Shown here one piece after another: positions 7,499-36,429 of a DNA stretch of 51,482 nucleotides. Every line of letters starts with the position of its first letter. Position 1 is the stretch's first letter. The notes below the pieces were generated by a model that had not been told where the DNA came from, ran no database searches, and worked only from the letters and a program-made list of their open reading frames with translations. The DNA is from Patescibacteria group bacterium (GTDB lineage: Bacteria; Patescibacteriota; Minisyncoccia; Portnoybacterales; UBA2143), in assembly GCA_018819085.1 (NCBI GenBank), contig JAHJQT010000059.1, forward strand, positions 1 to 51,482, read 5' to 3'. Position numbers and translations under genes: made by a program.

Positions 7499-7500
7499 AA

Positions 7501-9413: not shown

Positions 9414-9424
9414 TCTTTAAAAAA

Positions 9425-12555: not shown

Positions 12556-12563
12556 TTTTTATA

Positions 12564-14811: not shown

Positions 14812-14817
14812 AAAAAA

Positions 14818-16916: not shown

Positions 16917-16934
16917 ATTAATTTCTTTAATTAC

Positions 16935-21392: not shown

Positions 21393-22488
21393 TATTTTTC
21401 CTTTGATTTAATGCCATTTGTTCTAATTTAAGATTAGAATTTATTTTAATCTCATGGTTTTTTAATAATTCTTTTTTCTCTCGAACAGACAATAATTTAT
21501 ATTTATAATAACCAAGAGATGCAATCATAGCAGCATTATCAGTACAATAAGATTTTTTAACAGGATATTTAAATTCAAGATTTTGTGCTAAACAATCTTT
21601 ACTTAAAATATTTCTTAAATTGTCATTAGCTGAAATTCCTCCAACAAGATGGACTTCTTTAACTTTTTCTTTCTCTGCTAATTTTAATAGACCATTAGAA
21701 ATTAATTCACCCATAGTTTGTTCAAAACTAGCACATAAATCTGAAATAAACTTTTGTGATAAATTTTTTTTCTTTTTTCTTTTTTCAGAAATAGTTTTAC
21801 TAATTATTTTTTCTATTTTTGAAAAATCAAGTTTTGTTATATCAAAACTACCTATTTCTTTTGTTAAATTAAATTTATTTTTATCCCCCTTTTTAGCATA
21901 ATCAGAAATAACAGGACCACTACTAATAGGTCCACCTATTTTTAAAGCATCCGCTAAATAACTATAAACAGCTCCTATCCCTCTAAAGTTTGGCTTATTT
22001 TTTGATTTTCTTTTCATCGCGTCAATTCTAAAAAGCTCTTTAAATTCAAATTTGTTATTTAATATTTTAATAATGCCACTATGTCCACCCGAAGAACTTA
22101 AAACTAAAATAGGAAAATTAAAATCACTTTGCTCTCTTTCTAGCCAATTAGAAAAATAATGAGCCTCTTGATGATAAACTTGGATTAATGGCTTGTTTAA
22201 AACACTAGCCAAAACTTCTGCCGCTGTTAACCCAATTGAAACATTTGAAAAAAAACTACCAAAATTATTAACCGATATCAAAGAAATATCTTCCATTTTA
22301 CACTTTGATTTTGTCAACGCTCTTTTTATAACTGGCCCAATTTGATTTAAATGTGAATCTACTAAATTATATAATTTATCTGATTTCATTACAGTATGTT
22401 CGTTCACATTAGACAAAACAAATCTACCGTCTTCAACAACAGCTACGCAAACATCATGTAAGATTGTATCTATACCTAAAATTTTCAT
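21382..22488 (-). CDS. Kae1/TsaD (ASKHA-fold, N6-threonylcarbamoyl/carbamoyl transferase) family protein, divergent
   Basis: ILGIDT start, HQEAH metal-binding His pair, SSGGHSG, VGGISAN and CTDNAAMIA motifs in the TsaD order. The usual SCDET segment is replaced. Confidence 0.7.
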   Translation of the reverse strand: MKILGIDTILHDVCVAVVEDGRFVLSNVNEHTVMKSDKLYNLVDSHLNQIGPVIKRALTKSKCKMEDISLISVNNFGSFFSNVSIGLTAAEVLASVLNKPLIQVYHQEAHYFSNWLEREQSDFNFPILVLSSSGGHSGIIKILNNKFEFKELFRIDAMKRKSKNKPNFRGIGAVYSYLADALKIGGPISSGPVISDYAKKGDKNKFNLTKEIGSFDITKLDFSKIEKIISKTISEKRKKKKNLSQKFISDLCASFEQTMGELISNGLLKLAEKEKVKEVHLVGGISANDNLRNILSKDCLAQNLEFKYPVKKSYCTDNAAMIASLGYYKYKLLSVREKKELLKNHEIKINSNLKLEQMALNQRKNNVK

Positions 22489-22494
22489 AAAGAA

Positions 22495-24105: not shown

Positions 24106-24791
24106 TTATTTAATTTTTCTTTATTTAAATAATCTTCAACTAATTTAGCTATTTCTTCACTTAAAACACCTGATTGAATCTCACCTTCTCTGATTAATTT
24201 CACTTTATTATTAACTATTTCAATAACTGTTGAAGGTCGACGTTCAGGTAATTTTCCTGCATCCAAGACTATATCAGGTTTTACTTCATGTCCAAAAATC
24301 CCTCTAAAATACTCCATTAACTCTTCTACAGAATAAATATTTTTCAATTCAGAAATATTAGCACTTGTACCAATAACCGGTGTTCTATGAAATTTTGATA
24401 AAGTAGAAGTTACTTTATTAAAAGGAACTCGAAAACCAAGTGTTTTATATCCTAAGTTTAAAAACTCTGGAACTGTTTTATTATTTCTTGGCACTGCGAA
24501 AGTAAATGGTTCTTCAGGAAATTTTTCGGCAATTTTTTTAATTAAAGGATTAAATTTGCCATATTTTGCAATATCGTCAAGACAATAAAGCCCAAGATTA
24601 AATGCTTTTTTTCTATCTCTGTGTTTTGCTTTTTGTACTTTTTTTATTGACTTTAAATTAAAAGCATCACCCACCATTGTGTAAACAGCATCGCCAGGCA
24701 CAATAGCTATTTTACCTTTATTAATCGCATCAGCAACTTTTTTAACAGCTTTAGGATCTGGATTTTTATAATCTATTTTTACAATTTTCAT
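24102..24791 (-). CDS. YrdC/Sua5 (TsaC)-family L-threonylcarbamoyladenylate-synthase-like protein
   Basis: IAIVPGDAVYTMVGDA (PTDTVYGL-type) and IGTSANISE (SAN motif). Single YrdC domain of 229 aa. 4-nt overlap with the carbamoyltransferase gene. Confidence 0.75.
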   Translation of the reverse strand: MKIVKIDYKNPDPKAVKKVADAINKGKIAIVPGDAVYTMVGDAFNLKSIKKVQKAKHRDRKKAFNLGLYCLDDIAKYGKFNPLIKKIAEKFPEEPFTFAVPRNNKTVPEFLNLGYKTLGFRVPFNKVTSTLSKFHRTPVIGTSANISELKNIYSVEELMEYFRGIFGHEVKPDIVLDAGKLPERRPSTVIEIVNNKVKLIREGEIQSGVLSEEIAKLVEDYLNKEKLNK

Positions 24792-24793
24792 AA

Positions 24794-25744
24794 TTATTTT
24801 TTAACTTTTAATAAAGGAAAGTTATATTTATCAAGATAATCATTTTCTATACCACTACAACAATTATTATATTCACAGTTTACGCAATCATCGTTTTTAA
24901 TAAAACATTCTTTAAAATCTCTAATCTGTATTTTTTTTAATTGAAAATCCTTACTAACTTTTAATAATCTTCTTTGTCTTCTTTTTTCGATAGCTGAATC
25001 TTGAAATCTAGGCAAATTATCAATGTAACAAAGAGGAAAATTCCAAAATATTATATTAACACCCAATAAGTTAGCTGTTTTAACTGCTTTTTGTATATAT
25101 TCTTTTATTTTTTTAAAATCAGTTGGTAATGATTTCTTAAGTAAAGATTTTAATGTATCGCCAATATATATTAATCTAAATTCTATATTAATCTTTTTAT
25201 AATCATATTTCTTAAATAATTTATGTAAATATATAATTAAATCAGATAATGATTCTAAGTTATTTTTATTAATAACTAAAATAAGCATTATTGGCAATTT
25301 ATATTTTAAAAAATTTTCTAAGCCAGACATTCTCTTTATTTCGATTTCACTAATAGGTAAATTATTAATAGAGCCAATAATTTTATTATTTCTATCAGAT
25401 GGAAAATAATTTAATGTCTTCTCTAAAAAACTCTTATTATTAAAATGCAAAAGATTTGTTATAATTCTGAATTCTATCTTTTCTTTGTAAAAATAATCAA
25501 GAATTTTAAAAAAATTCTTATGAATAGTAGGCTCTCCTCCTGTAATAATAACATAATCAAGATTAAAATTATTTCTTAAATAATTAAAATTATCTTTTAT
25601 TTCTTTCAATGAAAGATCTTTTAATCCTTTTTTTGTATATTTTCTTTCAATACAAAAATTGCAATCATCATTACAGTTAGCAGTTATTTTAAACAATGCA
25701 GCAACATTTTCTTTTTGGTATTTTATAATCTTTTTTTTATTCAT
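24794..25744 (-). CDS. Radical SAM protein (short family variant, C-terminal 4-Cys motif)
   Basis: CNDDCNFC triad and TGGEPTIHKNF motif. C-terminal FPLC...CVNCEYNNCCSG. Confidence 0.75.
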   Translation of the reverse strand: MNKKKIIKYQKENVAALFKITANCNDDCNFCIERKYTKKGLKDLSLKEIKDNFNYLRNNFNLDYVIITGGEPTIHKNFFKILDYFYKEKIEFRIITNLLHFNNKSFLEKTLNYFPSDRNNKIIGSINNLPISEIEIKRMSGLENFLKYKLPIMLILVINKNNLESLSDLIIYLHKLFKKYDYKKINIEFRLIYIGDTLKSLLKKSLPTDFKKIKEYIQKAVKTANLLGVNIIFWNFPLCYIDNLPRFQDSAIEKRRQRRLLKVSKDFQLKKIQIRDFKECFIKNDDCVNCEYNNCCSGIENDYLDKYNFPLLKVKK

Positions 25745-25750
25745 AAATAC

Positions 25751-27313
25751 TCACCAAATATAATTTTTAACTTTTGAAGAATTCATTAGCGGATCATTAG
25801 CCTTATAACTACCATTAAAAAAATATGCTGAATACCTATCTCCTCCTTTACATTTTTCTAAAAAAGCACATTTCTTACATTCTTTTGGTATATTATTATA
25901 ATTTCTTAATGATTTCATGAAAGAATGATTCCAGCAAGCATTAATATCTAATGGGTCTCCGATATTTTTTTCAATATAATACATCGGTTTGGCAAAACCA
26001 CGTGGATCAATAACAAATCTTTCATGACCATCAACTGATTTAGCCCCTCCACAAACAGCATTTATTTTAATAGGATCATAAGCACAAAAAGGAACAGCAT
26101 TAATTATATGAACTTTTAAAGAATAATTATTCCTAACTATATCTTTTTTAATTTTAATTAATTTTTCTATTAAAAGTGGAATTTCTTTCTTTCCCCAAAT
26201 TATTTTTTCTCCAGGATTGGGTATCACCCGATTAATCATCCATTTATTAATTTTTAACTCTTTGAACAGTTTGTAAAATTTTTCTGAATTCTTAATATTC
26301 TCCATAGTTGCAACTGTACTAACATTAACAATTTTTACTCCTGCTTTTCTGAACCATTTTATAGCTCTTATTTTCTTTTCAAAAGAATTTTCAAATCCAG
26401 TTATTTTCTCATCTTCTTTAGAATTACAAGTATGCATTGAAAAAAGAATATAATCTAAATACTTAGCTATTTCTTTTACTTGTTTATAATCCTTAATTAA
26501 AGAACCATTTGTATTTAATTTAACCTGCAATCCTTTTTCTTTAGCATATTTTATTAAACTAAAAATATTTTTCCTTAATATTGGCTCTCCACCAGTGAAT
26601 CTTACTGCTGATACGCCTGTTTTTTTTAAATTGTCAATTATTTTTTTAATATACAGACTGCTTAGCTCCTTGCCTAATCTGTCTTTTTTAGCAAAACTAA
26701 CACGATTAAAACAAAAATCACATTTAAAATTACATTTATGAGTTACTTCAATTATAACTTCTCGAGGTAATAATTTTGGTTTAATTTTACTTTTGTTTAA
26801 ATTTTTAAGATACCCTTTTAAAATGCCATTGCATTTTTGATTATAAGCGCATAATTTACACTTTTTCAATTTCACAAAATCTTTAAAATTATTACTTTTT
26901 AAAATAAGGCCTTCAGGTTCAGGAATTAAACAATAAGGAAGACCTTCAACTTTAATTATCAAATCAAATAAAAAGACATAACGAGCTTTTGAGATGTAAG
27001 AAGCTACAACATCTAAAGAATCTATTAATTTATCTTTGCTTGGATTAATTAGGTTAAACTGTACTTTTTTGATTCTAAATTTTTTTGCTATTTTTAAAAT
27101 ACCATTTAGTCTAAAATAATTAGAATTTTTGACTTGATTCCCAGTATAAATATCTACACTAAGAACAATATTATCTTTTTTACCTTCTTTAATTAATTCT
27201 TCTATTTTCTGAATAGACTTTTTAAACGTAAAATTATTCTTAACAAAACGCTCATGGATTTCTGAACGATGACCGTATAAATAAATTTTAGAATAATTAT
27301 TTCTTTTTATCAT
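25751..27313 (-). CDS. Two-module radical SAM/SPASM protein (longest of three paralogues)
   Basis: The N-terminal ~180 aa lack a CX3CX2C triad but carry LPYC...CKLCAYNQKCNG. The core has CNFKCDFC and TGGEPILRKN. C-terminal CKKCAFLEKCKGG. The C-terminal half is close to 14818..16170 (DPRGFAKP.YYI.KNIGDPLDINACWNH). Confidence 0.8.
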   Translation of the reverse strand: MIKRNNYSKIYLYGHRSEIHERFVKNNFTFKKSIQKIEELIKEGKKDNIVLSVDIYTGNQVKNSNYFRLNGILKIAKKFRIKKVQFNLINPSKDKLIDSLDVVASYISKARYVFLFDLIIKVEGLPYCLIPEPEGLILKSNNFKDFVKLKKCKLCAYNQKCNGILKGYLKNLNKSKIKPKLLPREVIIEVTHKCNFKCDFCFNRVSFAKKDRLGKELSSLYIKKIIDNLKKTGVSAVRFTGGEPILRKNIFSLIKYAKEKGLQVKLNTNGSLIKDYKQVKEIAKYLDYILFSMHTCNSKEDEKITGFENSFEKKIRAIKWFRKAGVKIVNVSTVATMENIKNSEKFYKLFKELKINKWMINRVIPNPGEKIIWGKKEIPLLIEKLIKIKKDIVRNNYSLKVHIINAVPFCAYDPIKINAVCGGAKSVDGHERFVIDPRGFAKPMYYIEKNIGDPLDINACWNHSFMKSLRNYNNIPKECKKCAFLEKCKGGDRYSAYFFNGSYKANDPLMNSSKVKNYIW

Positions 27314-27319
27314 AAAAAA

Positions 27320-28426
27320 TTATTTTATAATTCTTTTAATAAAATTTATAATATTATTTTTATTACTTGAGAATCCATTATATCTTTCTGAAAAAAGTTT
27401 TATTAAAACATTAATAAGTTTATTAATAATTTTGAACTCGTCTTTTTTGTTAACGCCCAAATAAACAAATTGACCATGTAAATTTTTAATAAATCTTTTT
27501 AGAATCCTGCCTCTACTAGAATTATCTAATTCCTGTCCATCAAAAATTATAAAACTTATTGTTCTGATATGATCGATAATAATATTTAGGTTCTCTTCAA
27601 ATAAATTAATTGAATTATCGTTTATAGATTTAAAATAATCTAATAAAATCTTTTTCAAAGGAAATATTAAAGAAATATCATAAATATTATCCTTATTTTC
27701 TAAAGCCATTAAAAGTCTCTCGAAGCCGAAACCCTCTAAAACAGCTTGATTTCTTGTTCTTTTAAGCTGACCAGTGAATTTGAATTTATAATTAACATGA
27801 GAACCAATTTCAATGTATTTATTTCCAATCTTATAATATATTTCACAACCGGTTGATCCTGGATTATCAATTATACGAGAATAAAATAAATTTCTCTGTC
27901 CAATAGTCCTAAAAATTCTATCTTTACCCAAATGATTAATATAAGTATTATAAAAAATTTCATCTTCTTCTTCTGTTAATTTAATACCTTCAGCCTCACA
28001 AGAATGTAATATAGTCACAAGAATTTTGTTTTTATCTAGTCCAAGAACATTGAACATAAGATTACATAACAATTCAACTGATTTTTCTTTAGATAAATTT
28101 TCAGCTGCTCCAACAGAGCCAAACACTAATAATTCGAAAAAACTAAGATGACGGCTACTAATACCTACATTCTTCGCGTCATTCACTCTTATGCTTCTAT
28201 CTGGCAAAATATAGAAATTATCAATTGGCAAATGAGATTCTTTTTTAAAAACAATAATATCATCAATAATATGATGCGCAGCACTAGGAGAATAAGTATA
28301 ATTAAATCTTGGCTGAATTAAACCAGAAGAAAATTCATTCCTAAAATTTTCTTTTTCTAAAAAATTTTTTATTTTTATCAATAATTTATTATGTTTTAGA
28401 ACTATTTTATCTATATTCATAATCAA
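27320..28426 (-). CDS. Alanyl-tRNA synthetase catalytic-core homologue (class IIc), truncated stand-alone form
   Basis: Co-linear matches to AlaRS core motifs. RVNDAKNVGISSRHLSFFELLVFGSVG matches R.GGKHNDLENVG.T.RHHTFFEMLGNFSFG. STGCEIYY...YIEIGSHVNYKF matches GPCTEIFYD...IEIWNIVFMQF. LEGFGFERLLMALENKDNIYDISLIF matches DTGMGLERIAAVLQ...NYDIDLF. At 368 aa there is no room for tRNA-recognition, editing or C-Ala domains. Confidence 0.6.
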   Translation of the reverse strand: MIMNIDKIVLKHNKLLIKIKNFLEKENFRNEFSSGLIQPRFNYTYSPSAAHHIIDDIIVFKKESHLPIDNFYILPDRSIRVNDAKNVGISSRHLSFFELLVFGSVGAAENLSKEKSVELLCNLMFNVLGLDKNKILVTILHSCEAEGIKLTEEEDEIFYNTYINHLGKDRIFRTIGQRNLFYSRIIDNPGSTGCEIYYKIGNKYIEIGSHVNYKFKFTGQLKRTRNQAVLEGFGFERLLMALENKDNIYDISLIFPLKKILLDYFKSINDNSINLFEENLNIIIDHIRTISFIIFDGQELDNSSRGRILKRFIKNLHGQFVYLGVNKKDEFKIINKLINVLIKLFSERYNGFSSNKNNIINFIKRIIK

Positions 28427-28434
28427 AAATATAA

Positions 28435-29700
28435 TTACTTTTTAAAATAATAGGCAGATTTCATATAATTTTCAAGTAAATAAAGACATTTTGAAAATTG
28501 CGCTTTAGGAATTTTTAATTCATCTCCATCGTAAGTATAATTAATATAATTTTTTTTAAAAAGACTAAATACTGATTCCAATTCTTTTTCTTCTGCCTTA
28601 GTCAGAGGATTATTATCTAAAAATCGACCTAAATTAAATCTACTTAATCTTTTTATACCAGTATATATATTAAAAACAGGATAAATATTAGTTTTTTTAA
28701 AATTATGAAAAATTCTCATCGGAATCATATTTGCGTCTAATAAGAACTTATAAAGTCTCAATCTTTTAAAATTCATTCCTAATCCAAAACGCAAATGACT
28801 TTTAGCCATCAACCCTAAACCCAAAATACTTGGAAAAGCACCTGAGTAACCATTATAGCAAACACTTATTTTAGCATGTTCTATATTTTTCCCTAAACAC
28901 CATTCATCATAAACTTTTTGATATCCTCTTTTTCTTAAAATCTTTTCAAAATATAATAGATCTATTTTTTTCTGATAAGTGCTATAACGATGAATTTTTT
29001 TTCCATAATAATTATTTTCTTGCTGCGCCCTTAATTTATAAAAATGCATTCCATTAGGATGAAAATCAAGCACCTGCTTAAATTCATTCAGTCTATTATT
29101 ACAATATAATAATTCATTTCTAAAGCCATACATTAAGTCAACGGACCAAATAAAATCACTTTCTGCTAAAGTTTTAAGGCAATCAAGAATAACTTTTCTA
29201 GAAGTTCTTCTATTTTCTTGCTTCAAAATATTATCATTAAGCGTTTGAACACCTAATTGAATTTTAGTTACATTATATTTTTTTAACTCTTCTAAATATG
29301 ATTCAAAATCATCACAAGGTAAAATTTCTACAATAAATCTTTCTAAATTATTAAAATCTACTAATTTTTCTAAAGGTTTAATTAATAATTCAGGAGAAAC
29401 CAAATTAGGAGTGCCTCCACCAATATGAACATTCTTAAATTTAAAACCATTTAAAATATCAGCATACAATAAAATTTCTTTATTATAATATTTTAAAAAT
29501 TCATCTGAATTAAATTGATTATATAAACAAGGCTTATAAATGCAAAAATTACAAAAATTTGAACAGAAAGGATAATTAATGTATAAAAGACTATCTTTTC
29601 TTATTTTTTTTAATTCGAGTCTTAATATTTTTTCAATACCCCTACTCTGCTTAAATATGTTTTTAAAATCTTTATCTCTTTTATTAATATTGTTTTTCAT
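28435..29700 (-). CDS. HemN/HemW-like (class C type) radical SAM protein
   Basis: YPFCSNFCNFCIY triad context and HIGGGTPNL motif. 421 aa. Confidence 0.8.
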   Translation of the reverse strand: MKNNINKRDKDFKNIFKQSRGIEKILRLELKKIRKDSLLYINYPFCSNFCNFCIYKPCLYNQFNSDEFLKYYNKEILLYADILNGFKFKNVHIGGGTPNLVSPELLIKPLEKLVDFNNLERFIVEILPCDDFESYLEELKKYNVTKIQLGVQTLNDNILKQENRRTSRKVILDCLKTLAESDFIWSVDLMYGFRNELLYCNNRLNEFKQVLDFHPNGMHFYKLRAQQENNYYGKKIHRYSTYQKKIDLLYFEKILRKRGYQKVYDEWCLGKNIEHAKISVCYNGYSGAFPSILGLGLMAKSHLRFGLGMNFKRLRLYKFLLDANMIPMRIFHNFKKTNIYPVFNIYTGIKRLSRFNLGRFLDNNPLTKAEEKELESVFSLFKKNYINYTYDGDELKIPKAQFSKCLYLLENYMKSAYYFKK

Positions 29701-29709
29701 AAAATGAAA

Positions 29710-30807
29710 CTATAAAATTTTACTTTCTGGAGATCTACGACAGCATCTTTGACAGACATAAAACAATCCATTATTTTTTATTTCATTGAAAAGTTTTTTT
29801 GCTCTCTGACCATTTAATATTTCTTCTAATGGCATTTTTTTTATATTACCAAGATAATAAAAAGAAATACTACATCCAGGGAATACATCTCCATTTTGAT
29901 CTATCCTTATTTGTTTAAAAACATTAGGACAACTATTAATTTTATGGCAACCATCAGAAAACCATTTTTTATACTTTTTGTCTGAATCAAAATCAGGAAA
30001 AAATAATACACGCATTCTAGATTTTTCAGATAATTTTCTTTTTATTAAATTAATTTTTCTTACAACTTCATTTATTTCTTTTTTATTAAGCTTGCCTAAT
30101 TTATTATCTAATCCCTCTATTAATTTTGCTCGCTCTTCATAAACATTAAATCTTTCATGAAATTCATTAACGCATTTATCTATAATTAAAGAATTTGACC
30201 ATTGTGCCAACGAAAAAGAAAGTACATCGCATTTAACATCTTCAGCTAAAGACAAAACACTATCAAAAGATCCTACATTTAATTTATTTATTACAGTATT
30301 AATAGCTAATAAGGGAAGGTAAAAATTAATATTTTCTTTCATTATTTGTAATTTTTTAATGCTTTCTAATGTTCTATTAAAGTTTCCATTACCTCTATTG
30401 GCATCGTGATCAACAGAATTTCCATCTATGGAAAACATTAAAGCAGAAGTTTGATTTTTAATTAATTCCGAAAAAATCTTTTTGTCATTATGTGTTCCAT
30501 TTGTAAATATCATTAATTTAACTTTTTGTTTTTTTGCATGTTTCAATATATTAAAAATATTAGGATTTAAAAATGGCTCCCCACCAGATAAATTAATCGT
30601 AATATCATTATAATCTTCAAATCGCTTCAATTGTTCTACCAGCTTTTTAAAAAGTTCAAAAGTGAAATTACAACTCTTATTATTAAAAAAAGATATCTTT
30701 TTTTCTTTAATGCCTGTTAAAAAACATGTCTTACATTTTAAATTACATAAGTTTGTTGTTTCAATAGTAATTTTTTCTAAATAATTATTCAAAAATTTTA
30801 ATTTCAT
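29710..30807 (-). CDS. Radical SAM/SPASM-domain protein (possible HxsC counterpart)
   Basis: CNLKCKTC triad and SGGEPFLNPN motif. C-terminal Cys-rich region CPNVFKQIRIDQNGDVFPGC...CQRCC. The HxsC idea rests only on size and context. Confidence 0.75.
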   Translation of the reverse strand: MKLKFLNNYLEKITIETTNLCNLKCKTCFLTGIKEKKISFFNNKSCNFTFELFKKLVEQLKRFEDYNDITINLSGGEPFLNPNIFNILKHAKKQKVKLMIFTNGTHNDKKIFSELIKNQTSALMFSIDGNSVDHDANRGNGNFNRTLESIKKLQIMKENINFYLPLLAINTVINKLNVGSFDSVLSLAEDVKCDVLSFSLAQWSNSLIIDKCVNEFHERFNVYEERAKLIEGLDNKLGKLNKKEINEVVRKINLIKRKLSEKSRMRVLFFPDFDSDKKYKKWFSDGCHKINSCPNVFKQIRIDQNGDVFPGCSISFYYLGNIKKMPLEEILNGQRAKKLFNEIKNNGLFYVCQRCCRRSPESKIL

Positions 30808-30813
30808 ATTTTT

Positions 30814-31872
30814 TTATTTTTCACTTAAAATATTATTACAATAGTGTTTATAATACCAGAAACTAGGCAATACAGAGATAAATTTCTGTTGTTTTGTAAA
30901 AATACTTTTATATTTTCCTCTTACTGCAACCATAGCAGCATTATCTCCACAAAACTCTTTTTTTAATGGTGCTTTGAAAACAATTTTATTTTTAACAGCA
31001 ATATTTTTTATTTTATCTTTAAAAATAGAATTAGCAGAAACACCACCAACTAAATGCATTTCTTTAACCTTATAATCTTTAGCAATTTTTAAGAATTCTT
31101 GTCCTAATAAATTAAAGATATAATCTAAAAAACTAAAAGATAAATTTCTTTGAAAATTCTCATTTAATAAATTTTTTCTATATTTTGAGTAAATTTTTTC
31201 AATTGCCTTATTTGTATCTAAAATTATTAACGTATTTTTATTTCGTTTAATTCTTATTTCGTTTAATTCAGGAATTTCTATTTTTTTTCCTCTTTTAGCA
31301 AGATCAGAAAGCATATTTCCACCATCACCAGTTTTTATAATCTTAATTCTCATTCCATGGCAAAATACATCAAAAAGTGCTGCAATTCCATTAAAAGAAT
31401 TTTTTTTAGAATCCCATACTATGGAAATTAACTTATTAATTTTTTTGTGACTTTCCTGATAATATATAGCTGTATGAGCACCAGAGACGCTTAAACCAAG
31501 AATAGGAAATTTGAATTCTTTTTCTTGTCTTTCGAGCCAATTTGAATAAAGATGTGCAATTTCATGATCAATGCCTATGATTTTCTTTTTTTTAGAATAA
31601 CCTAAAATACAAGCAGCTGTAACACCTATTGGAAGAGATTGAAATGTACCCTTTTTATTAATAACTGAGATTAATTTAATTTTGTTCCATGTGTTATCAG
31701 GCAATAAATTTAAAAGATCTACCAAATTTTTTATATGAGCACTAAAAAATCTATCAGCATCTTGATCATAAAGATCTATACTTATAGATTTGTTAAATTT
31801 AACTTTATTATTATTATCAATTAAAGCTAATCCAGTAGTATGAAATGTTGTGTCAATACCTAAAAATAACAT
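30814..31872 (-). CDS. Second divergent Kae1/TsaD-family protein
   Basis: FLGIDTT start, DHEIAH His pair, SVSGAHT, VGGVSAN and CGDNAAMVA motifs. It is the first gene after the hairpin at 31913-31940. Confidence 0.65.
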   Translation of the reverse strand: MLFLGIDTTFHTTGLALIDNNNKVKFNKSISIDLYDQDADRFFSAHIKNLVDLLNLLPDNTWNKIKLISVINKKGTFQSLPIGVTAACILGYSKKKKIIGIDHEIAHLYSNWLERQEKEFKFPILGLSVSGAHTAIYYQESHKKINKLISIVWDSKKNSFNGIAALFDVFCHGMRIKIIKTGDGGNMLSDLAKRGKKIEIPELNEIRIKRNKNTLIILDTNKAIEKIYSKYRKNLLNENFQRNLSFSFLDYIFNLLGQEFLKIAKDYKVKEMHLVGGVSANSIFKDKIKNIAVKNKIVFKAPLKKEFCGDNAAMVAVRGKYKSIFTKQQKFISVLPSFWYYKHYCNNILSEK

Positions 31873-31961: not shown

Positions 31962-32954
31962 TTATTTATTATATTCTTCAGAATAAAATTCACACATTAA
32001 ATTTTTAGCTTGATTATGAAATATTTCACAATCTTCATATTTTTTCAGTTCACATTCTTTTGTTCCATTAAACCCAAAATCTTTACAATTTATATAATCC
32101 AAACTCATCACATAATGTTTACATTTTTCTTTTGAATCTAAATCTGGAATAGAATCACATAATTCTAAAGCTAATTCTTTATCACCAACACGAAAAGCCA
32201 AAGATGATCTCATCAAAAATTGAACACTTAATAAATCAACATCGTTTGACCATGGAAACTCTATATTATCTTTCTCAAAATTAGACCAATCATTGCTATA
32301 TCTAATAATATTTTCGCATAGACTATTACATCTACGTTCTGCTTCATTAAACACTTCTTTAGAAAGTTTATTTCTTCTTTCTGGTAATAATGCTCCTGAA
32401 TTTAAACAAATTTCTAAAAAATAATCTGTTATTTTATTATTTGGACATATTTTTTCTATAGGCATTAAAGCAATGCCATTAGCATATTCATATTGAACAC
32501 TTAATAATCCTATCTTATTATTATTTTCATCATATCTATTAAGTATTGCACCTAATGAATCTATGCTTAGAATATATTCCTTTGTATAATCTGAAATTTT
32601 TAATTCTTGAATTAAAGATGTTGTTCTTTTATATAATTCATTAAATATATGTTTATCAAAATCTTCTCTATAATTAATTAATTCACATGATAAATACCGT
32701 ACCATTTCAAAATTAATCATTTCTAATTCCTTATCTGTAAAAAAATTTGAATTATTTATTTCTTTTATAAATTTCTCATCACTCATTTTATTAACTTTTT
32801 CTAAGCAATTTGATTTAATTTCTAATTTTGTTGTGTCTGAAGAATTATTAAAAAAATTATATTTTTCTTGCGAATATAAAAAACTGGCCAATAAACCAAC
32901 CATTAATAAAACAACTATTAATATAAATAATAATATTTTATTTTTTAAATTCAT
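31962..32954 (-). CDS. Membrane-anchored Cys-rich hypothetical protein
   Basis: N-terminal hydrophobic helix ILLFILIVVLLMVGLLASFLY followed by a ~300-aa domain with many Cys residues. It starts 11 nt after the stop of the His-Xaa-Ser ORF. Confidence 0.6.
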   Translation of the reverse strand: MNLKNKILLFILIVVLLMVGLLASFLYSQEKYNFFNNSSDTTKLEIKSNCLEKVNKMSDEKFIKEINNSNFFTDKELEMINFEMVRYLSCELINYREDFDKHIFNELYKRTTSLIQELKISDYTKEYILSIDSLGAILNRYDENNNKIGLLSVQYEYANGIALMPIEKICPNNKITDYFLEICLNSGALLPERRNKLSKEVFNEAERRCNSLCENIIRYSNDWSNFEKDNIEFPWSNDVDLLSVQFLMRSSLAFRVGDKELALELCDSIPDLDSKEKCKHYVMSLDYINCKDFGFNGTKECELKKYEDCEIFHNQAKNLMCEFYSEEYNK

Positions 32955-32965: not shown

Positions 32966-33406
32966 TTAATATGACGAATGAGAGCCATGGGATCCGTGTG
33001 AACTATGTGAGCCATGGGATCCGTGTGAGCCATGTGAACCATGGGAACCATGTGAACCGTGGGAACCATGTGAACCGTGGGAACCATGTGAGCCGTGGGA
33101 ACCATGTGAGCCGTGGGAACCATGTGAGCCGTGGGAACCATGTGAGCCGTGAGAGCTATGGGAACCATGAGAAGAATGGGAACCATGAGAACTGTGAGAG
33201 CTATGGGATCCATGAGAGCTGTGAGAGGCATGAGTACAAGCTGCTGAAGCTGGATCTGCTTTCATTGCTCCAGCTAGACCAACACCTAAGGCCACAAAAG
33301 TTAATGCTATTTTAGCAACACTTTTTTTATTGATTCTTCCTTCTTCACTCGTTAAAAAAGCCTTGATATCTTTTTTAATCTGAGGTATTTTTATTTTTTT
33401 TATCAT
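32966..33406 (-). CDS. His-Xaa-Ser repeat protein (HxsA-like candidate radical SAM substrate)
   Basis: The 58-aa N-terminal part has a hydrophobic stretch and an ASA site. It is followed by ~29 consecutive H-[GSA]-S triplets and a terminal Tyr. It is the longest of three frames open across the repeat, and the only one with a plausible N-terminal domain and operon fit. Confidence 0.75.
   Translation of the reverse strand: MIKKIKIPQIKKDIKAFLTSEEGRINKKSVAKIALTFVALGVGLAGAMKADPASAACTHASHSSHGSHSSHSSHGSHSSHGSHSSHGSHGSHGSHGSHGSHGSHGSHGSHGSHGSHGSHGSHGSHGSHGSHGSHSSHGSHGSHSSY
32972..33232. repeat. Coding tandem repeat (9-nt His-Xaa-Ser unit, with a core of near-perfect 18-nt units)
   Basis: Visible units ccatgtgaaccgtgggaa and ccatgtgagccgtgggaa repeat head-to-tail between ~33030 and ~33150. 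Degenerate copies flank this core. Confidence 0.9.
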
Positions 33407-33571: not shown

Positions 33572-34225
33572 TTAAGATGGGGTATCTCCTCCTGAACGTG
33601 GCCGAGACCTATCTCGCGGATCAACGTCTCCCTTGAAATAAATGTTAAACGTCGACTCAATTATGAGCCACTTCCCATTTTGATTTACTAAATGAAGTTC
33701 TTTAGTTAACCAAAGGAGATCCCCTCCTTCAGCAGAGATTGATGCTACAGCATCAACCTCTGCTGTTAACCCGTTAACTTCGATTTCGAAAGATTCGTAT
33801 TTTACAAATCCTGCCGCCTCAAATGCGGCTGGAAACATCTTCGTGTAAACCATCTTTGTCACAATTCGTTGTTCTCGCCCAACCATAATTTTCGCTTCTG
33901 AGTGGAATAATGAAAGATATCCCACCACGTCCCTCTTATTCCATGTCTGCTCAGACTTAAACAAAACTTCTCTAACTAAGTCTTTCGCTCCTGTTGTGAT
34001 AGAAGAAGTGGGAGTAGTTACAATGATGGGCCCAGAATCACGAGCTGGATTATAGACAGCGTTAGAACTAATGTTTCCAGCACCTCCAGAAGAAGGACCT
34101 CCGCTCCTAATTTGAATATTCATTCCGGCTACTGAATAGCCACCAATGAGATGTTCACCACCACATGCCGTAAGAAACGTTCCTACAGCTACTATTGTCA
34201 TTACTATCATTAGATTCTTTCTCAT
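33572..34225 (-). CDS. Lipoprotein with NTF2/SnoaL-like C-terminal domain; compositionally foreign
   Basis: Lipobox in MRKNLMIVMTIVAVGTFLTAC-GG. Strong SD (AGGAGGAAAAATC before the ATG). Clearly higher G+C than both neighbours. The NTF2-like call is a weak impression from the C-terminal half. Confidence 0.7.
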   Translation of the reverse strand: MRKNLMIVMTIVAVGTFLTACGGEHLIGGYSVAGMNIQIRSGGPSSGGAGNISSNAVYNPARDSGPIIVTTPTSSITTGAKDLVREVLFKSEQTWNKRDVVGYLSLFHSEAKIMVGREQRIVTKMVYTKMFPAAFEAAGFVKYESFEIEVNGLTAEVDAVASISAEGGDLLWLTKELHLVNQNGKWLIIESTFNIYFKGDVDPRDRSRPRSGGDTPS

Positions 34226-34321: not shown

Positions 34322-35770
34322 TCACTTGTCAAGCCATTTTTTGAAAATTTCTTTTATTTTTGGATCTTGCAATTTTTCAAATAAGAAAGAAATCATAGCT
34401 TTATTGATCTTACATCTTTCATTGGTTGGCATTTGTCCAAAAATATTTCCTTGTTCAGCATAATTATAAATAGGACAGATTCCACAATATGGCTTATAAG
34501 CACAATCATCACATCCAGCTAAACCATCAAGACAAGAAGCAGTACATAAAGTTCTCACTATTGGATTTCCAACTATTTCCTGATATGTATTTTCTTTAAC
34601 ATTTCCTAAACAAAAACTTTCATCGTTCATCATACTCATCATTCTTCCCTCATCGCAAGTATAGACATTACCGTTATAATTATAAGCTAATTGACCTATT
34701 CCTGCTCCACAAGGAGATCTAAAATCTAAATGGTTAGGATCTTTTTCAGTTAAAATTTTCTTTAAAAAAGTTACAGCTGCTTTTTCTCTAACTTTTTTTC
34801 CTTTAAGATTTAATCCTATAATATACGAAAGAGCATTTTTGTAAAAATTAATATATTCATCAGCTGTATAGCCTATTTTTTTAAAACTTTCTTTAAGAAG
34901 TCCAAAAGGATTTAATGGTCTTCCTAAATAAAAATCATCAAAACCTAATTTTATATACTCATCAACTATTTCCTTATAATAAGACAGAGAGAAACGACTT
35001 ATGGTTACAGATAGTCCTATTTTGAAAATATACCCTTTTTTTCTTAATTGCGGATATAATTTAAAAAATTTCTTAGACCATTTAGTTGCATAATAATAGC
35101 TATTACCCTTAACCATTGGACGATTCTTATTATGAACTTTTTCAGGACCATCTATAGAAACACAAAAACTGACATTTTTATCAAGCAAATACTTAAATTT
35201 TTCCTCGGTCATTAATGAAAAGTTGGAAACTAGTCTAATCTCTAAATCTTTTTTAGCCTTTTTATTCTTTTTATAAGCTTCTTCTATGATAAATTTAACT
35301 ATTGGCCAATTTACTAATGGCTCGCCTCCTTGAAATTCAATAGCAACAAAAGGACTTGTTGTTTGAAATATTTTTTCAACAACATTTTTAGCTGTTTCTT
35401 TATCCATATCTAAATCAGTCCTGTCCATTGCTTGAGCGCTAGCATGACAATAAACACATTTATGATTACATCTTAAGGTGACAACAACAATATGCAAACT
35501 TGGACCATTGAATAAAAAAGAATTTTTTAAACGATATTTATCTATTGATTCTGTTAAATCTAAATCTTTTTTAATAAAACTCTTTTTATTTAAGGATAAA
35601 TATGGTTCTTTGTCTTTTTCTAAATTATCAGATAAAAAATCTTTAAATTCTTTTTTTGTTAAAAATAAAAAACCACCAACATCATTTGTTAAAAGATATT
35701 TATCTTTTATTTTTTTAAAACGAAAAAATCCAAGCTTATTATATTTAATTTTTTTTAAGTCAGATAACAT
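34322..35770 (-). CDS. Radical SAM/SPASM maturase, anSME-like architecture (HxsB-like)
   Basis: CNHKCVYC triad and FQGGEPLVNW motif. SPASM region CGAGIGQLAYNYNGNVYTCDEGR...CDDCAYKPYCGICP. N-terminal FRFKKIKDKYLLTNDVGGFLFLTKKEFKDFL extension. 482 aa. Confidence 0.85.
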   Translation of the reverse strand: MLSDLKKIKYNKLGFFRFKKIKDKYLLTNDVGGFLFLTKKEFKDFLSDNLEKDKEPYLSLNKKSFIKKDLDLTESIDKYRLKNSFLFNGPSLHIVVVTLRCNHKCVYCHASAQAMDRTDLDMDKETAKNVVEKIFQTTSPFVAIEFQGGEPLVNWPIVKFIIEEAYKKNKKAKKDLEIRLVSNFSLMTEEKFKYLLDKNVSFCVSIDGPEKVHNKNRPMVKGNSYYYATKWSKKFFKLYPQLRKKGYIFKIGLSVTISRFSLSYYKEIVDEYIKLGFDDFYLGRPLNPFGLLKESFKKIGYTADEYINFYKNALSYIIGLNLKGKKVREKAAVTFLKKILTEKDPNHLDFRSPCGAGIGQLAYNYNGNVYTCDEGRMMSMMNDESFCLGNVKENTYQEIVGNPIVRTLCTASCLDGLAGCDDCAYKPYCGICPIYNYAEQGNIFGQMPTNERCKINKAMISFLFEKLQDPKIKEIFKKWLDK

Positions 35771-35777
35771 TTTTAAT

Positions 35778-36044
35778 TTATGACCTCATTAAAAAAAAGA
35801 CGTAATTACAAAACTCGTCTTTAATTATTTTTTCAACGCTTTTGTCAATATTGCTCAATTCTACCTGAATATATTTTTTTGTTTTCTTAAAGCTAAAATC
35901 AGCTAAATTATTATATTCTTTTATAGCTGATTTTATTGATTTAAGATTATATAAGTTTTTATTAAAACTAATCAGTATTCTCTCTTTTTTGTTACGCTGT
36001 TTTCCTGTTTTGTTTTTTGATTGTTTTTTCTGTTTTTTCACCAT
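35778..36044 (-). CDS. Small HxsD-like domain protein (second copy)
   Basis: The ORF track gives a TTG start at 36068. I prefer the ATG at 36042-36044 (MVKKQKK...). The C-terminal part ILISFNKNLYNLKSIKSAIKEY...IIKDEFCNYVFFLMR is co-linear with the upstream HxsD-like ORF. It overlaps that ORF by ~50 nt. Confidence 0.4.
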   Translation of the reverse strand: MVKKQKKQSKNKTGKQRNKKERILISFNKNLYNLKSIKSAIKEYNNLADFSFKKTKKYIQVELSNIDKSVEKIIKDEFCNYVFFLMRS

Positions 36045-36429
36045 ATTTGTCTTCCCATGGTATAGCAATACCTAAAGGATCATCTTCGTATTTTACTTCA
36101 TCCTCCTTATTAACTTGATCATCTCCAAAAGCTGAAAACAATGCCTGACTAATAATATACTCCCTTATTTTCCTATTATTCTTAGATAAATTAATTCTGA
36201 CAGTATAATTTAAAAGTTCATTCAAAAACTCGCCTTTAAGATTTTTTAATTGCTTTTCGTTTAATTTATTTTTTCCTTTTAAAGATACCTCTATTTTTCT
36301 AGATGATTTATTATCTAAAAATAAATATGCTTTATCAAGAAAAACATAAGCTGCTCCATAAAGAGCTTCCTTAGGATAATTCTGAAGATCAAAAACAAAC
36401 CTTATAGTATTATTTCTTAAATCTACCAT
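35992..36429 (-). CDS. HxsD-like protein
   Basis: EFLNELLNYTVRINL resembles the LLNDYxLRE signature that, as I recall, names the HxsD family model. It lies immediately upstream of the HxsB-like rSAM. Confidence 0.5.
   Translation of the reverse strand: MVDLRNNTIRFVFDLQNYPKEALYGAAYVFLDKAYLFLDNKSSRKIEVSLKGKNKLNEKQLKNLKGEFLNELLNYTVRINLSKNNRKIREYIISQALFSAFGDDQVNKEDEVKYEDDPLGIAIPWEDKYGEKTEKTIKKQNRKTA

What the first reader, a model, noticed from the sequence alone, without database searches (positions are those of the whole stretch)
34322..36429. Recognisable Hxs core: two HxsD-like ORFs (overlapping, or one frameshifted gene) followed by an HxsB-like rSAM/SPASM maturase
Seen in sequence: ORF 35992..36429 contains EFLNELLNYTVRINL. 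As I recall, the HxsD family model is nicknamed for an LLNDYxLRE signature. ORF 35778..36044/36068 repeats the same layout (x-F-x3-Y ... EF-x-NY). It overlaps the first ORF by 50-77 nt in an A-rich tract. The pair could therefore be two coupled genes or one gene split by a frameshift.

The next gene (482 aa) has a CNHKCVYC triad plus a full SPASM region, and an N-terminal FRFKK..YLLTN..GGFLFL extension.

Inference: this is the ancestral core onto which the larger enzyme block was added. A duplicated HxsD-like domain could be a substrate-recognition element.
Basis: partly seen in the sequence, partly recalled or inferred. Interest (0 to 1): 0.7.

Follow-up and report, generated by a model that had tools for sequence, protein, structure and literature searches.

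The report
Hxs core with two HxsD genes
This stretch holds three real, separate genes of the known His-Xaa-Ser peptide-maturation system (two small related helper proteins and a radical-SAM enzyme) in a candidate-phyla-radiation-type bacterium; curated models already recognise all three, so the core is ordinary, though the cluster around it is unusually large.

Summary
All three ORFs pass curated NCBIfam cut-offs. 35992-36429(-) is HxsD (63.5 bits, cut-off 50). 35778-36044/36068(-) is the "HxsD-like protein" NF038315 (65.5, cut-off 41). 34322-35770(-) is HxsB (531.7, cut-off 370). A His-Xaa-Ser precursor of type HxsA4, with 29 HxS repeats, lies two genes downstream.

The two small ORFs are separate genes, not one frameshifted gene. 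The order HxsD, HxsD-like, HxsB recurs in at least 15 independent loci from Patescibacteria and DPANN archaea. The junction there ranges from a 73-nt gap to a 53-nt overlap. No fused protein appears among the best 120 HxsD or 150 HxsD-like relatives listed. An independent assembly has the same 53-nt overlap with substitutions but no indels.

Both small proteins are predicted with the same beta-alpha-beta-beta-alpha fold, which is not like a PqqD-type recognition element. The "substrate-recognition element" idea therefore has no support.

The "conserved core plus added enzyme block" idea is broadly supported. HxsC-like radical-SAM genes sit next to HxsB in relatives but about 21 kb away here.

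Verdict: a new member of a known, curated but uncharacterised Hxs subtype.

The parts
35992..36429 (-). hxsD (145 aa). HxsD domain at residues 13-99, then an acidic linker, an invariant tail motif Y-x-D-D-P-L-G-I-A-x-P-W-E-x-K-Y (residues 114-129) and a variable Lys-rich end.
   Evidence: TIGR03976 scores 63.5 bits against a cut-off of 50. There are 554 homologs; those listed are 114-162 aa, and some are named HxsD in Portnoybacteria or Parcubacteria. Tail motif. AF2 gives pLDDT above 90 for residues 1-80, with beta-alpha-beta-beta-long alpha.
35778..36044 (-). hxsD-like paralog (88 aa from the ATG at 36044; the ORF opens at a TTG at 36068). Disordered Lys-rich N-terminus of about 22 aa, a core of about 66 aa, and an invariant C-terminal I-K-D-E-F-C-N-Y-V.
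   Evidence: NF038315 HxsD_rel scores 65.5 bits against a cut-off of 41. 40 homologs of 65-94 aa. 792 clusters at E<=1e-3, and the best 150 are all 47-101 aa. AF2 pLDDT 81, same topology as HxsD. The closest relatives keep the ATG and the Lys-rich extension and have no internal Met.
34322..35770 (-). hxsB, a radical SAM/SPASM maturase (482 aa). CNHKCVYC at residues 101-108, a SPASM Cys cluster at 354-453, and a family-typical N-terminal domain at about residues 1-95.
   Evidence: TIGR03978 scores 531.7 bits against a cut-off of 370, covering model positions 3-466 of 466. Pfam finds Radical_SAM, Fer4_12 and SPASM. The closest solved structure is CteB, 5wgg.
33572..34225 (-). Lipoprotein-like protein with a weak DUF4440/SnoaL-like match (217 aa). 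An accessory gene between hxsB and hxsA4.
   Evidence: Weak DUF4440 hit, E 0.004. A homolog is found only in the nearest relative, L001/L002.
32966..33406 (-). hxsA4 precursor (146 aa). Conserved leader ...IKAFLTSEEGRINKK, a hydrophobic stretch, ASAAC, then 29 H-x-S repeats (HGS or HSS) ending in SHSSY.
   Evidence: NF038313 HxsA4 scores 108.8 bits against a cut-off of 55. DNA repeat of 9-nt period with 28.6 copies. Relatives carry 9-48 repeats and share the leader residues F, E and G.
31962..32954 (-). Membrane-anchored Cys-rich protein (330 aa) that follows hxsA4. Function unknown.
   Evidence: No family hit. Homologs occupy the same position in L001/L002 and L010.
13447..31872 (-). Variable 'larger enzyme block' that separates the core from the HxsC-like genes. 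It holds 8 radical-SAM genes, two Kae1/TsaD-like genes, a Sua5-like gene, a NodU/TobZ-type carbamoyltransferase, an AlaRS catalytic-domain paralog, an ATP-grasp enzyme, a PLP decarboxylase and an SDR.
   Evidence: Subsets recur beside the core in L004 and L010 but not in L001, L006 or L007.
6572..13460 (-). Five HxsC-like radical-SAM paralogs (12564-13460, 10691-11659, 9825-10694, 7501-8424, 6572-7498), two short ORFs without a family hit (11863-12144, 93 aa; 9425-9760, 111 aa) and a conserved unknown gene (8421-9413).
   Evidence: Their best hits are HxsC4 (NF038332, at most 170.5 bits against a cut-off of 500) or HxsC (TIGR03977, at most 175.3 against 267.9), all below cut-off. Homologs lie next to HxsB in L007, L011, L015, L021, L026 and L028. 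All have an intact CxxxCxxC.
5346..6572 (-). Polytopic membrane protein (408 aa), probably an A24-family (prepilin/preflagellin-type) aspartyl peptidase. Candidate leader peptidase for HxsA4.
   Evidence: Peptidase_A24 E 9e-5, 23.3 bits, just under the gathering score of 26.5. Homologs next to HxsD in L023 and L025 pass it (31.3 and 28.1 bits) and also carry Arc_PepC.

Best explanation
The flagged span is the 5' end of a His-Xaa-Ser (Hxs) peptide-maturation operon in a Patescibacteria-type (CPR) genome. It holds three separate, translationally coupled genes: hxsD, a shorter hxsD-like paralog, and hxsB.

Shown:
- Each gene belongs to its curated family.
- The two small genes are distinct and conserved as a pair directly upstream of hxsB in CPR and DPANN genomes.
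- Both are predicted to share one beta-alpha-beta-beta-alpha fold.
- A cognate HxsA4 precursor with 29 HxS repeats lies two genes downstream.

Inferred:
- HxsB is a SPASM radical-SAM enzyme. I propose that its N-terminal domain binds the conserved HxsA4 leader (F-L-x-S-E-E-G-x-I), and that it modifies the HxS repeats by radical chemistry. A His-to-Ser side-chain cross-link, as in three-residue cyclophane RiPPs, is one plausible chemistry.
- HxsD and HxsD-like are not enzymes. I propose they form a small adaptor pair, probably a heterodimer, that docks onto the HxsC-like radical-SAM partners. E. coli HxsD binds HxsC in this way.
- The invariant C-terminal DPLGIAxPWExKY peptide of HxsD would serve as a tethered docking motif.
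- The modified precursor is then cleaved, possibly by the cluster's A24-type peptidase, and exposed outside the membrane.
For: Family membership. HxsD scores 63.5 bits (cut-off 50), HxsD_rel 65.5 (41), HxsB 531.7 (370) and HxsA4 108.8 (55). As a positive control, the canonical Aeromonas HxsD and HxsC score 78.8 and 395.9.

Separate genes.
- The HxsD to HxsD-like junction varies widely between loci: +73, +16, about +12, 0, -1, -7, -23, -29, -38 and -53 nt.
- L004 has a clean 16-nt gap.
- All 120 listed HxsD homologs are 114-162 aa.
- All 150 best HxsD-like representatives are 47-101 aa, out of 792 clusters.
- The window and L001 (88% and 74% protein identity for HxsD and HxsD-like, from a different sample) share the same 53-nt overlap. 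There are substitutions inside the A-runs but no indels.

Conservation. The triad recurs in L001-L015 (CPR) and in L021, L022, L026 and L027 (DPANN). Elusimicrobia loci have HxsD, then HxsB, then a second HxsD-like gene.

Paralogy. The profile-profile alignment is collinear over 64 columns, and the AF2 topology is identical.

Adaptor idea. E. coli HxsD pulls down with HxsC and is needed for HxsA processing (PMC13128918). Foldseek returns weak but recurrent matches to small dimerising adaptor subunits: Pcc1, Pcc2, Gon7 and Rpb11/AC19.

Tail motif. It is invariant across 30 HxsD sequences, and in the loci held here it occurs only in HxsD.

Leader. F17, E21 and G23 are conserved from CPR to DPANN.
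Against: - No ORF in the window reaches the HxsC or HxsC4 curated cut-offs. The partner of the HxsD pair is therefore only HxsC-like, and it lies at least 21 kb away.
- The sequence relationship between HxsD and HxsD-like is weak on its own (hhalign E 3e-3, probability 9.9%).
- No Foldseek hit reaches E<1e-3, so the Pcc1-like adaptor analogy is only a lead.
- Heterodimer formation, the role of the tail motif, the HxsB chemistry and the role of the peptidase were not tested.
- HxsA4 lacks the peptidoglycan-binding domain and the basic H-R-S repeats of characterised HxsA. The published antiphage mechanism may therefore not transfer.
- The true start codon of the HxsD-like gene (ATG 36044 or another) has not been shown experimentally.
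Confidence: 0.85

Rival explanations
1. The two small ORFs are one HxsD-family gene split by a frameshift. The cause would be a homopolymer sequencing error in the A-rich tract or programmed +1 frameshifting.
For: The ORFs overlap by 53-77 nt in a stretch that is 56% A and has several A6 runs. ORF2 lies in the +1 frame relative to ORF1.
Against: - No fused form appears among the 120 listed HxsD homologs (114-162 aa) or the best 150 HxsD-like representatives (47-101 aa).
- In relatives the junction ranges from a 73-nt gap to a 53-nt overlap, in differing frames.
- L004 has a 16-nt intergenic spacer.
- An independent assembly, L001, keeps the same frame relationship with substitutions but no indels.
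- The NF038315 model begins at residue 33 of ORF2, so the family is a free-standing protein of about 62 aa.
Confidence: 0.02
2. ORF2 (35778-36068) is a spurious ORF that arises by chance in AT-rich DNA between hxsD and hxsB.
For: It is short, starts inside another gene and has no Pfam hit in the local Pfam copy.
Against: - It exceeds the curated NF038315 cut-off.
- It has 40 close and 792 distant homolog clusters with an invariant IKDEFCNYV motif.
- It keeps its position between hxsD and hxsB across phyla.
- AF2 gives a confident fold, with pLDDT of about 90 or more for the core.
Confidence: 0.01
3. The HxsD/HxsD-like pair is the substrate-recognition element of the system. It would bind the HxsA4 leader and present it to HxsB, like a stand-alone PqqD-type RRE.
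For: - Small accessory proteins in rSAM RiPP clusters are often RREs (general knowledge).
- The HxsA4 leader is strongly conserved.
- HxsD is required for HxsA processing in E. coli (PMC13128918).
Against: - The predicted fold is beta-alpha-beta-beta-alpha, not a winged-helix RRE. There is no PqqD/RRE entry in the top 50 Foldseek hits of either model and none by Pfam at E<=10.
- The only interaction reported for HxsD is with HxsC, not HxsA (PMC13128918).
- HxsB has its own family-conserved N-terminal domain of about 95 aa, at the position where SPASM maturases such as CteB carry their RRE (inference).
Confidence: 0.12
4. The region is a generic rSAM/SPASM RiPP cluster that only resembles Hxs superficially. 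The HxS repeats would be low-complexity coincidence.
For: - No HxsC equivalog is present and the gene order is non-canonical.
- The precursor also hits collagen-like repeat models.
- PADLOC (2023) has no Hxs model, and only generic viperin-like rSAM hits appear.
Against: - Four different Hxs-specific curated models pass their cut-offs in one operon.
- HxsB matches its equivalog model end to end.
- The same four-gene association recurs in at least 15 loci.
Confidence: 0.02

Closest known systems
Canonical HXS/Hxs system: HxsD-HxsB-HxsC-HxsA. Defined in silico (NCBIfam TIGR03976-03978 for HxsD, HxsC and HxsB; attributed to Haft and Basu, as cited in PMC9062424) and characterised as an antiphage system in E. 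coli (PMC13128918). Comparator used here: Aeromonas plasmid NC_009349 (L034).
   Same: - HxsB and HxsD are equivalog-level members.
- The precursor carries His-Xaa-Ser repeats.
- hxsD lies directly upstream of hxsB.
- The HxsD motifs needed in E. coli (LYW-like and LLNDYxLRE-like) are recognisable, as LYG at residue 23 and EFLNELLNYTVRINL at residue 67.
   Different: - A second HxsD paralog sits between hxsD and hxsB.
- HxsD carries a tail of about 45 aa with the invariant DPLGIAxPWExKY motif, which is absent from the 96-aa canonical HxsD.
- There is no HxsC equivalog. Several HxsC-like rSAMs of about 300 aa lie more than 21 kb away, whereas a 401-aa HxsC is adjacent in canonical systems.
- The precursor has 29 uncharged HGS/HSS repeats, a conserved cytoplasmic-type leader plus a hydrophobic stretch, and no peptidoglycan-binding domain. 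The Aeromonas comparator here has about 6 basic HRS repeats plus that domain, and the E. coli HxsA is described with five HxS repeats.
- The host is CPR rather than Pseudomonadota, where 99.7% of canonical systems were reported.
NCBIfam Hxs subtype models: NF038313 (HxsA4), NF038315 (HxsD-like protein) and NF038332 (HxsC4).
   Same: The window's precursor and second small protein pass the HxsA4 and HxsD_rel cut-offs. Curators have therefore already modelled this subtype with paired HxsD genes.
   Different: No rSAM in the window or in the tested relatives reaches the HxsC4 cut-off (at most 170.5 bits against 500). No paper in the searched library mentions HxsA4, HxsC4 or HxsD-like.
SPASM-domain RiPP maturases with an N-terminal peptide-binding domain, such as the SCIFF maturase CteB (PDB 5wgg), and His-cross-linking three-residue cyclophane synthases (HaaB, HtkB; PMC11499958).
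   Same: HxsB has a CxxxCxxC motif plus a full SPASM Cys set and a domain of about 95 aa ahead of the rSAM core. H-x-S has the form of a three-residue aromatic-x-x cross-linking motif (inference).
   Different: HxsB scores far below the cut-offs of all those families (for example PapB 110.6 against 340, and GrrM/OscB 55.2 against 310). Its chemistry is unknown. The only reported modification in an Hxs system is +8 Da on SHRSS in E. coli (PMC13128918).
Pcc1/Pcc2/Gon7 of the KEOPS complex and Rpb11/AC19 of RNA polymerases. These are small alpha/beta subunits that homo- or heterodimerise and dock onto a larger enzyme.
   Same: The size and predicted topology are similar. These proteins recur among the best Foldseek hits for both HxsD and HxsD-like (TM normalised to the target about 0.5-0.65, Foldseek probability up to 0.99). 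A paralog pair (Pcc1-Pcc2) is a precedent for an HxsD/HxsD-like heterodimer.
   Different: No hit reaches E<1e-3 and sequence identity is 8-19%. There is no sequence-level relationship. This is a resemblance in how it might work, not evidence of membership.

Membership tests
His-Xaa-Ser (Hxs/HXS) system | HxsB radical SAM/SPASM maturase (TIGR03978, cut-off 370 bits) | tested here: met
   531.7 bits, E 1.5e-159, model positions 3-466 of 466. CNHKCVYC at residues 101-108 and a SPASM Cys cluster.
His-Xaa-Ser (Hxs/HXS) system | HxsD small protein (TIGR03976, cut-off 50 bits) with LYW-like and LLNDYxLRE-like motifs | tested here: met
   63.5 bits, residues 13-99. LYG at residue 23 and EFLNELLNYTVRINL at residue 67.
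His-Xaa-Ser (Hxs/HXS) system | Precursor or effector with tandem His-Xaa-Ser repeats (HxsA family models) | tested here: met
   NF038313 HxsA4 scores 108.8 bits against a cut-off of 55. 29 H-x-S units.
His-Xaa-Ser (Hxs/HXS) system | HxsC radical SAM partner (TIGR03977, cut-off 267.9 bits) adjacent to HxsB | tested here: not met
   The best hit in the window is 175.3 bits (6572-7498), about 27 kb from hxsB. The other HxsC-like genes score 46-106 bits. The control, Aeromonas HxsC, scores 395.9 bits. HxsC-like paralogs do exist and are adjacent to HxsB in relatives.
His-Xaa-Ser (Hxs/HXS) system | Gene order HxsD-HxsB-HxsC-HxsA (99.6% of described systems; PMC13128918) | tested here: not met
   The order here is HxsD, HxsD-like, HxsB, a DUF4440-like gene, HxsA4, about 19 kb of other enzymes, then the HxsC-like paralogs.
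His-Xaa-Ser (Hxs/HXS) system | [quoted passage not shown] | tested here: not met
   HxsA4 has no domain hit other than repeat artefacts, and its x residue is G or S. Canonical Aeromonas HxsA has HRS repeats and a C-terminal domain that I read as peptidoglycan-binding (read by eye, not scanned).
His-Xaa-Ser (Hxs/HXS) system | Antiphage activity through a block of phage DNA entry | not testable with these tools
   This needs phage challenge of a host that expresses the cluster. PADLOC 2.0 has no Hxs model.
HxsD-like protein (NF038315) | Score of at least 41 bits; a free-standing protein of about 62-70 aa encoded next to hxsD | tested here: met
   65.5 bits, model positions 1-61 of 62 at residues 33-94. 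It lies between hxsD and hxsB here and in at least 15 loci. The window's copy has an extra Lys-rich N-terminus of about 22 aa, shared only with its closest relatives.
HxsC4 (NF038332) | Score of at least 500 bits | tested here: not met
   The highest score in the window is 170.5 bits (12564-13460). Relatives score 120-156 bits.
RiPP recognition element (PqqD-like RRE), as a reading of HxsD and HxsD-like | Winged-helix PqqD-like fold or a Pfam PqqD match | tested here: not met
   The predicted topology is beta-alpha-beta-beta-alpha. No PqqD/RRE structure appears in the top 50 Foldseek hits. There is no Pfam hit at E<=10. Caveat: no Foldseek hit of any kind was significant.
Pcc1/Gon7-type dimerising adaptor | Significant structural or sequence similarity to Pcc1 | tested here: inconclusive
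   Foldseek E 0.04-0.3 and TM to target 0.5-0.65. No sequence hit in the PDB.

The most novel reading that the evidence does not exclude
CPR, DPANN and Elusimicrobia genomes may share a distinct, expanded kind of Hxs system with three features:
- A heterodimeric HxsD/HxsD-like adaptor (Pcc1/Pcc2-like, with an invariant DPLGIAxPWExKY docking peptide) organises many radical-SAM enzymes (14 in this window) and Kae1/Sua5/carbamoyltransferase-type enzymes into an assembly line.
- That assembly line decorates a long poly-(His-x-Ser) chain.
- The precursor behaves like a class-III (prepilin-like) signal-peptide protein. A dedicated A24 peptidase of the cluster cleaves it, and it is displayed on the cell surface, possibly together with the type IV pilus locus that surrounds the cluster.
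Probability: 0.1. Interest if true: 0.75.

Novelty: new member of a known kind. Interest (0 to 1): 0.35.

Why it matters
For the flagged span the result is mainly a clean annotation: three genes, correctly delimited, and no frameshift.

It matters somewhat more widely because the only characterised Hxs system (E. coli, 2026) has one HxsD. That system's family was reported as 99.7% Pseudomonadota. This window and its relatives show a curated but unpublished subtype in ultra-small CPR bacteria and DPANN archaea. This subtype always has two HxsD paralogs, a conserved docking-like tail on HxsD, a very different precursor and multiple HxsC-like enzymes.

That gives a natural experiment for working out what HxsD proteins do. 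It also shows that genome-reduced organisms devote about 31 kb to this chemistry.

Tried and rejected
- **Frameshift or fusion hypothesis:** rejected.
- **Spurious-ORF hypothesis for ORF2:** rejected.
- **RRE/PqqD reading of the small proteins and of the HxsB N-terminus by sequence:** no Pfam hit even at E<=10. A profile search of PDB sequences with HxsD returned only chance-level hits.
- **Structural homology search:** no significant PDB match for either model. The Pcc1/Rpb11-like resemblance is kept only as a lead.
- **Promoter and terminator scan of 31800-38700:** counts were no higher than in shuffles, so it says nothing about operon boundaries.
- **PADLOC:** no Hxs models, only generic viperin-like rSAM hits.
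- **Cluster look-up for source names of the HxsD-like proteins and HxsB:** no names on record.
- **Direct BLASTP of the 408-aa membrane protein against the window's PilD:** nothing. Only the Pfam A24 profile on its N-terminal part and on its homologs gave a signal.
- **Literature search for HxsA4, HxsC4 or HxsD-like:** nothing.
- **Not done:** multimer structure prediction (no tool and no jobs left), read-level checks, and a structure model of the HxsB N-terminal domain.
Full report
**Observation.** All genes from 468 to 45985 lie on the minus strand of a window with 22-32% GC over that stretch.

- 35992-36429 (145 aa).
- 35778-36068 (96 aa from a TTG; 88 aa from the ATG at 36044).
- 34322-35770 (482 aa).

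The quoted motifs are present:
- EFLNELLNYTVRINL at residue 67 of ORF1.
- DEFCNYV at residue 84 of ORF2.
- CNHKCVYC at residues 101-108 of the 482-aa protein, with a SPASM-type cysteine cluster.
- FRFKK, YLLTN and GGFLFL at residues 16-37 of that protein.

The overlap is 53 nt from the ATG, 50 nt from the GTG and 77 nt from the TTG. It lies in a stretch that is 56% A with several A6 runs.

**Identity.** A scan against NCBIfam gave equivalog-level hits above the curated cut-offs for all three:
- HxsD, TIGR03976: 63.5 bits against 50.
- 'HxsD-like protein', NF038315: 65.5 bits against 41.
- HxsB, TIGR03978: 531.7 bits against 370, covering the whole model.

The N-terminal 'extension' of the 482-aa protein is therefore a family feature, not a peculiarity of this protein.

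Two genes downstream, 32966-33406 is a His-Xaa-Ser repeat precursor of the HxsA4 type (NF038313, 108.8 bits against 55). It has 29 H-x-S units, encoded by a 9-nt DNA repeat. As positive controls, the canonical Aeromonas plasmid HxsD and HxsC score 78.8 and 395.9 bits.

**One gene or two.** Four lines of evidence say two.
1. The HxsD-like ORF has 40 close homologs of 65-94 aa. A profile search of 1.84 billion representatives found 792 clusters, and the best 150 are all 47-101 aa. The 120 listed HxsD homologs are 114-162 aa. No fusion protein of about 200 aa was seen.
2. The order HxsD, HxsD-like, HxsB recurs in independent contigs. The junction differs between them: +73, +16, about +12, 0, -1, -7, -23, -29, -38 and -53 nt. 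L004 has a clean 16-nt spacer.
3. L001 comes from a different sample and is 88% (HxsD) and 74% (HxsD-like) identical in protein. It has the same 53-nt overlap, and its DNA aligns to the window without indels but with substitutions inside the A-runs. This argues against a homopolymer error.
4. The closest relatives keep an ATG followed by a Lys-rich segment and have no Met at the start of the core. More distant relatives start directly at the core. The ATG at 36044 is therefore the likely start. AF2 predicts the first 30 residues of the 96-aa ORF as disordered.

**Relationship of the two small proteins.** The profile-profile comparison is collinear over 64 columns but weak (E 3e-3).

AF2 models built on family alignments give the same topology for both:
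- HxsD: beta 8-14, alpha 20-29, beta 34-40, beta 45-52, long alpha 58-100. pLDDT is above 90 for residues 1-80.
- HxsD-like: beta 31-36, alpha 42-52, beta 57-62, beta 66-72, alpha 82-95. pLDDT is 81.

The HxsD-like protein ends inside the region that corresponds to the LLNDYxLRE motif. It shares only E-F-x-N with HxsD there.

In this clade HxsD carries an additional tail. After an acidic linker comes Y-x-D-D-P-L-G-I-A-x-P-W-E-x-K-Y, which is invariant in 30 aligned sequences. In the loci held here this motif occurs only in HxsD. It is absent from the 96-aa canonical HxsD.

Foldseek against the PDB found no match at E<1e-3 for either model. Weak hits recur to Pcc1, Pcc2, Gon7 and LAGE3 of KEOPS, to Rpb11/AC19, to KH domains and to designed ferredoxin-like folds. 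No PqqD/RRE structure appeared, and Pfam found nothing at E<=10. I therefore do not support the 'substrate-recognition element' suggestion. The only experimental datum is that E. coli HxsD binds HxsC and is needed for HxsA processing (PMC13128918).

**Context and the 'core plus added block' idea.** HxsB relatives at 69-75% identity come from Patescibacteria MAGs. Those at 43-47% come from Elusimicrobia, and those at 37-42% from DPANN archaea. HxsD homologs are named from Portnoybacteria and Parcubacteria.

Mapping every window gene onto these loci shows three things:
- The triad plus an HxsA4-like precursor is constant.
- The genes after it differ between loci. L001 has an aldehyde dehydrogenase and B12-type rSAMs. 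L004 has an ATP-grasp enzyme, a TsaD-like gene, a Sua5-like gene, a decarboxylase and rSAMs, as in this window. L007 has three HxsC-like rSAMs directly after HxsB.
- The window's HxsC-like rSAMs (12564-13460, 10691-11659, 9825-10694, 7501-8424, 6572-7498) and their neighbours (8421-9413, 5346-6572) have homologs directly beside the core in L007, L011, L015, L021, L025, L026 and L028.

In this window, then, a block of about 18 kb (13447-31872) separates the core from its HxsC-like partners, which lie about 21 kb from hxsB.

None of the HxsC-like proteins reaches the HxsC cut-off (best 175.3 against 267.9) or the HxsC4 cut-off (best 170.5 against 500). Membership of the canonical four-gene system therefore fails on that feature and on gene order. 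The published survey says HxsB and HxsC are always adjacent and that 99.6% of systems have the order D-B-C-A.

**Precursor.** HxsA4 relatives share a leader with invariant F, E and G (F-L-x-S-E-E-G-x-I). This is followed by a hydrophobic stretch, a short A-S-A-A-C-like segment, and 9 to 48 HGS/HSS repeats.

Canonical HxsA is different. The Aeromonas comparator has an ordinary signal peptide, about six basic H-R-S repeats and a C-terminal domain that I read as peptidoglycan-binding.

The electrostatic DNA-trapping mechanism proposed for E. coli therefore cannot simply be transferred.

**Mechanism (inferred).** HxsB, through its N-terminal domain, binds the conserved leader and modifies the repeats. 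A His-to-Ser cross-link analogous to the known His-containing three-residue cyclophanes (PMC11499958) is a reasonable guess, but it is untested.

HxsD and HxsD-like would act as a small adaptor pair for the HxsC-like enzymes, with the HxsD tail as a docking peptide.

A polytopic membrane protein at 5346-6572 resembles A24 prepilin/preflagellin peptidases. Its Peptidase_A24 score is 23.3 bits, just under the gathering score. Its homologs beside HxsD in L023 and L025 pass it and also carry Arc_PepC. It is a candidate leader peptidase.

**Novelty.** All parts of the flagged span are recognised by existing curated models, including the second HxsD paralog. The finding is therefore a new member of a known, curated subtype.

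That subtype is absent from the searched literature. It also differs in several respects from the one characterised system. I score the core itself as modestly interesting and list the surrounding cluster separately.

Noticed in passing
window 6572-35770 (minus strand): The window holds fourteen radical-SAM genes, each with an intact CxxxCxxC: HxsB, five HxsC/HxsC4-like genes, three weaker HxsC-like genes, four SPASM or NirJ-like genes and one HemN-like gene. That is a very large investment for a CPR-type genome.
   Followed up: partly
window 18887-31872: The enzyme block contains two divergent Kae1/TsaD-like proteins (30814-31872 and 21382-22488, both below the TsaD cut-off). It also has a Sua5/TsaC-like protein (24102-24791; 122.5 bits against a cut-off of 123.2) and a NodU/TobZ-type carbamoyltransferase (22495-24105). 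The rest are an AlaRS catalytic-domain-only paralog (27320-28426), an ATP-grasp enzyme and a LysA-like PLP decarboxylase; an SDR lies just outside these coordinates at 16167-16916. This suggests carbamoyl- or aminoacyl-type decoration of the peptide. Part of the set recurs next to the Hxs core in L004.
   Followed up: partly
window 5346-6572 (-); L021 2965-4080; L023 8158-9306; L025 8036-9244: A polytopic membrane protein resembling A24 (prepilin/preflagellin) aspartyl peptidases, with an archaeal PepC-like C-terminal domain in homologs, recurs in this Hxs clade, often directly upstream of hxsD. It may be the leader peptidase for HxsA4, whose charged leader plus hydrophobic stretch resembles a class III signal peptide.
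   Followed up: partly
window 468-1507 and 37255-45985: The whole Hxs cluster of about 31 kb is embedded in a type IV pilus locus. Prepilin peptidase, pilin, PilC, PilT, PilB and PilM/N/O-like genes lie upstream, and minor pilins lie downstream. Prepilin peptidase also sits just upstream of hxsD in L001, L009, L010, L012 and L013. This could be inherited synteny or a functional link.
   Followed up: no
window 35992-36090 (HxsD residues 114-129); same motif in L001-L016: The motif Y-x-D-D-P-L-G-I-A-x-P-W-E-x-K-Y is invariant in the otherwise disordered C-terminal tail of HxsD in CPR and Elusimicrobia. It is degenerate in a DPANN copy (GINMPW) and absent from canonical proteobacterial HxsD.
   Followed up: partly
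window 32833-33315 (+) and 32938-33231 (-): Long ORFs that overlap hxsA4 on the opposite strand and in another frame are by-products of the 9-nt tandem repeat (28.6 copies), not genes. The same antisense ORF appears in L001 and L002.
   Followed up: yes
L001, L004, L009-L020 (HxsA4-like precursors): The number of HxS repeats varies from 9 to 48 between close relatives. Elusimicrobia precursors end in RGGWC and have N-Y-F before the repeats. In Elusimicrobia the second HxsD-like gene follows hxsB instead of preceding it.
   Followed up: partly
window 36433-37203 (-): A 256-aa membrane-anchored protein with an internal duplication (two units of about 100 aa, ...IIDGVFQK...LLYF...SISLTDFN.GD.ISV...) ends 3 nt before the hxsD start. 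It is conserved only in the nearest relatives (L001, L012), and its function is unknown.
   Followed up: no
window 1518-5287 (-): Two large proteins (899 aa and 364 aa) with PKD and Rha78A-like Ig domains lie between the Hxs cluster and the minor pilin genes. A homolog of the 364-aa protein sits upstream of hxsD in L010.
   Followed up: no
window 46000-51482: Strand and composition change at about 46 kb: genes are on the plus strand and GC rises to 0.32-0.38. Two tRNA-Ser genes (GCT, TGA) lie at 48222-48308 and 48332-48422 (+).
   Followed up: no
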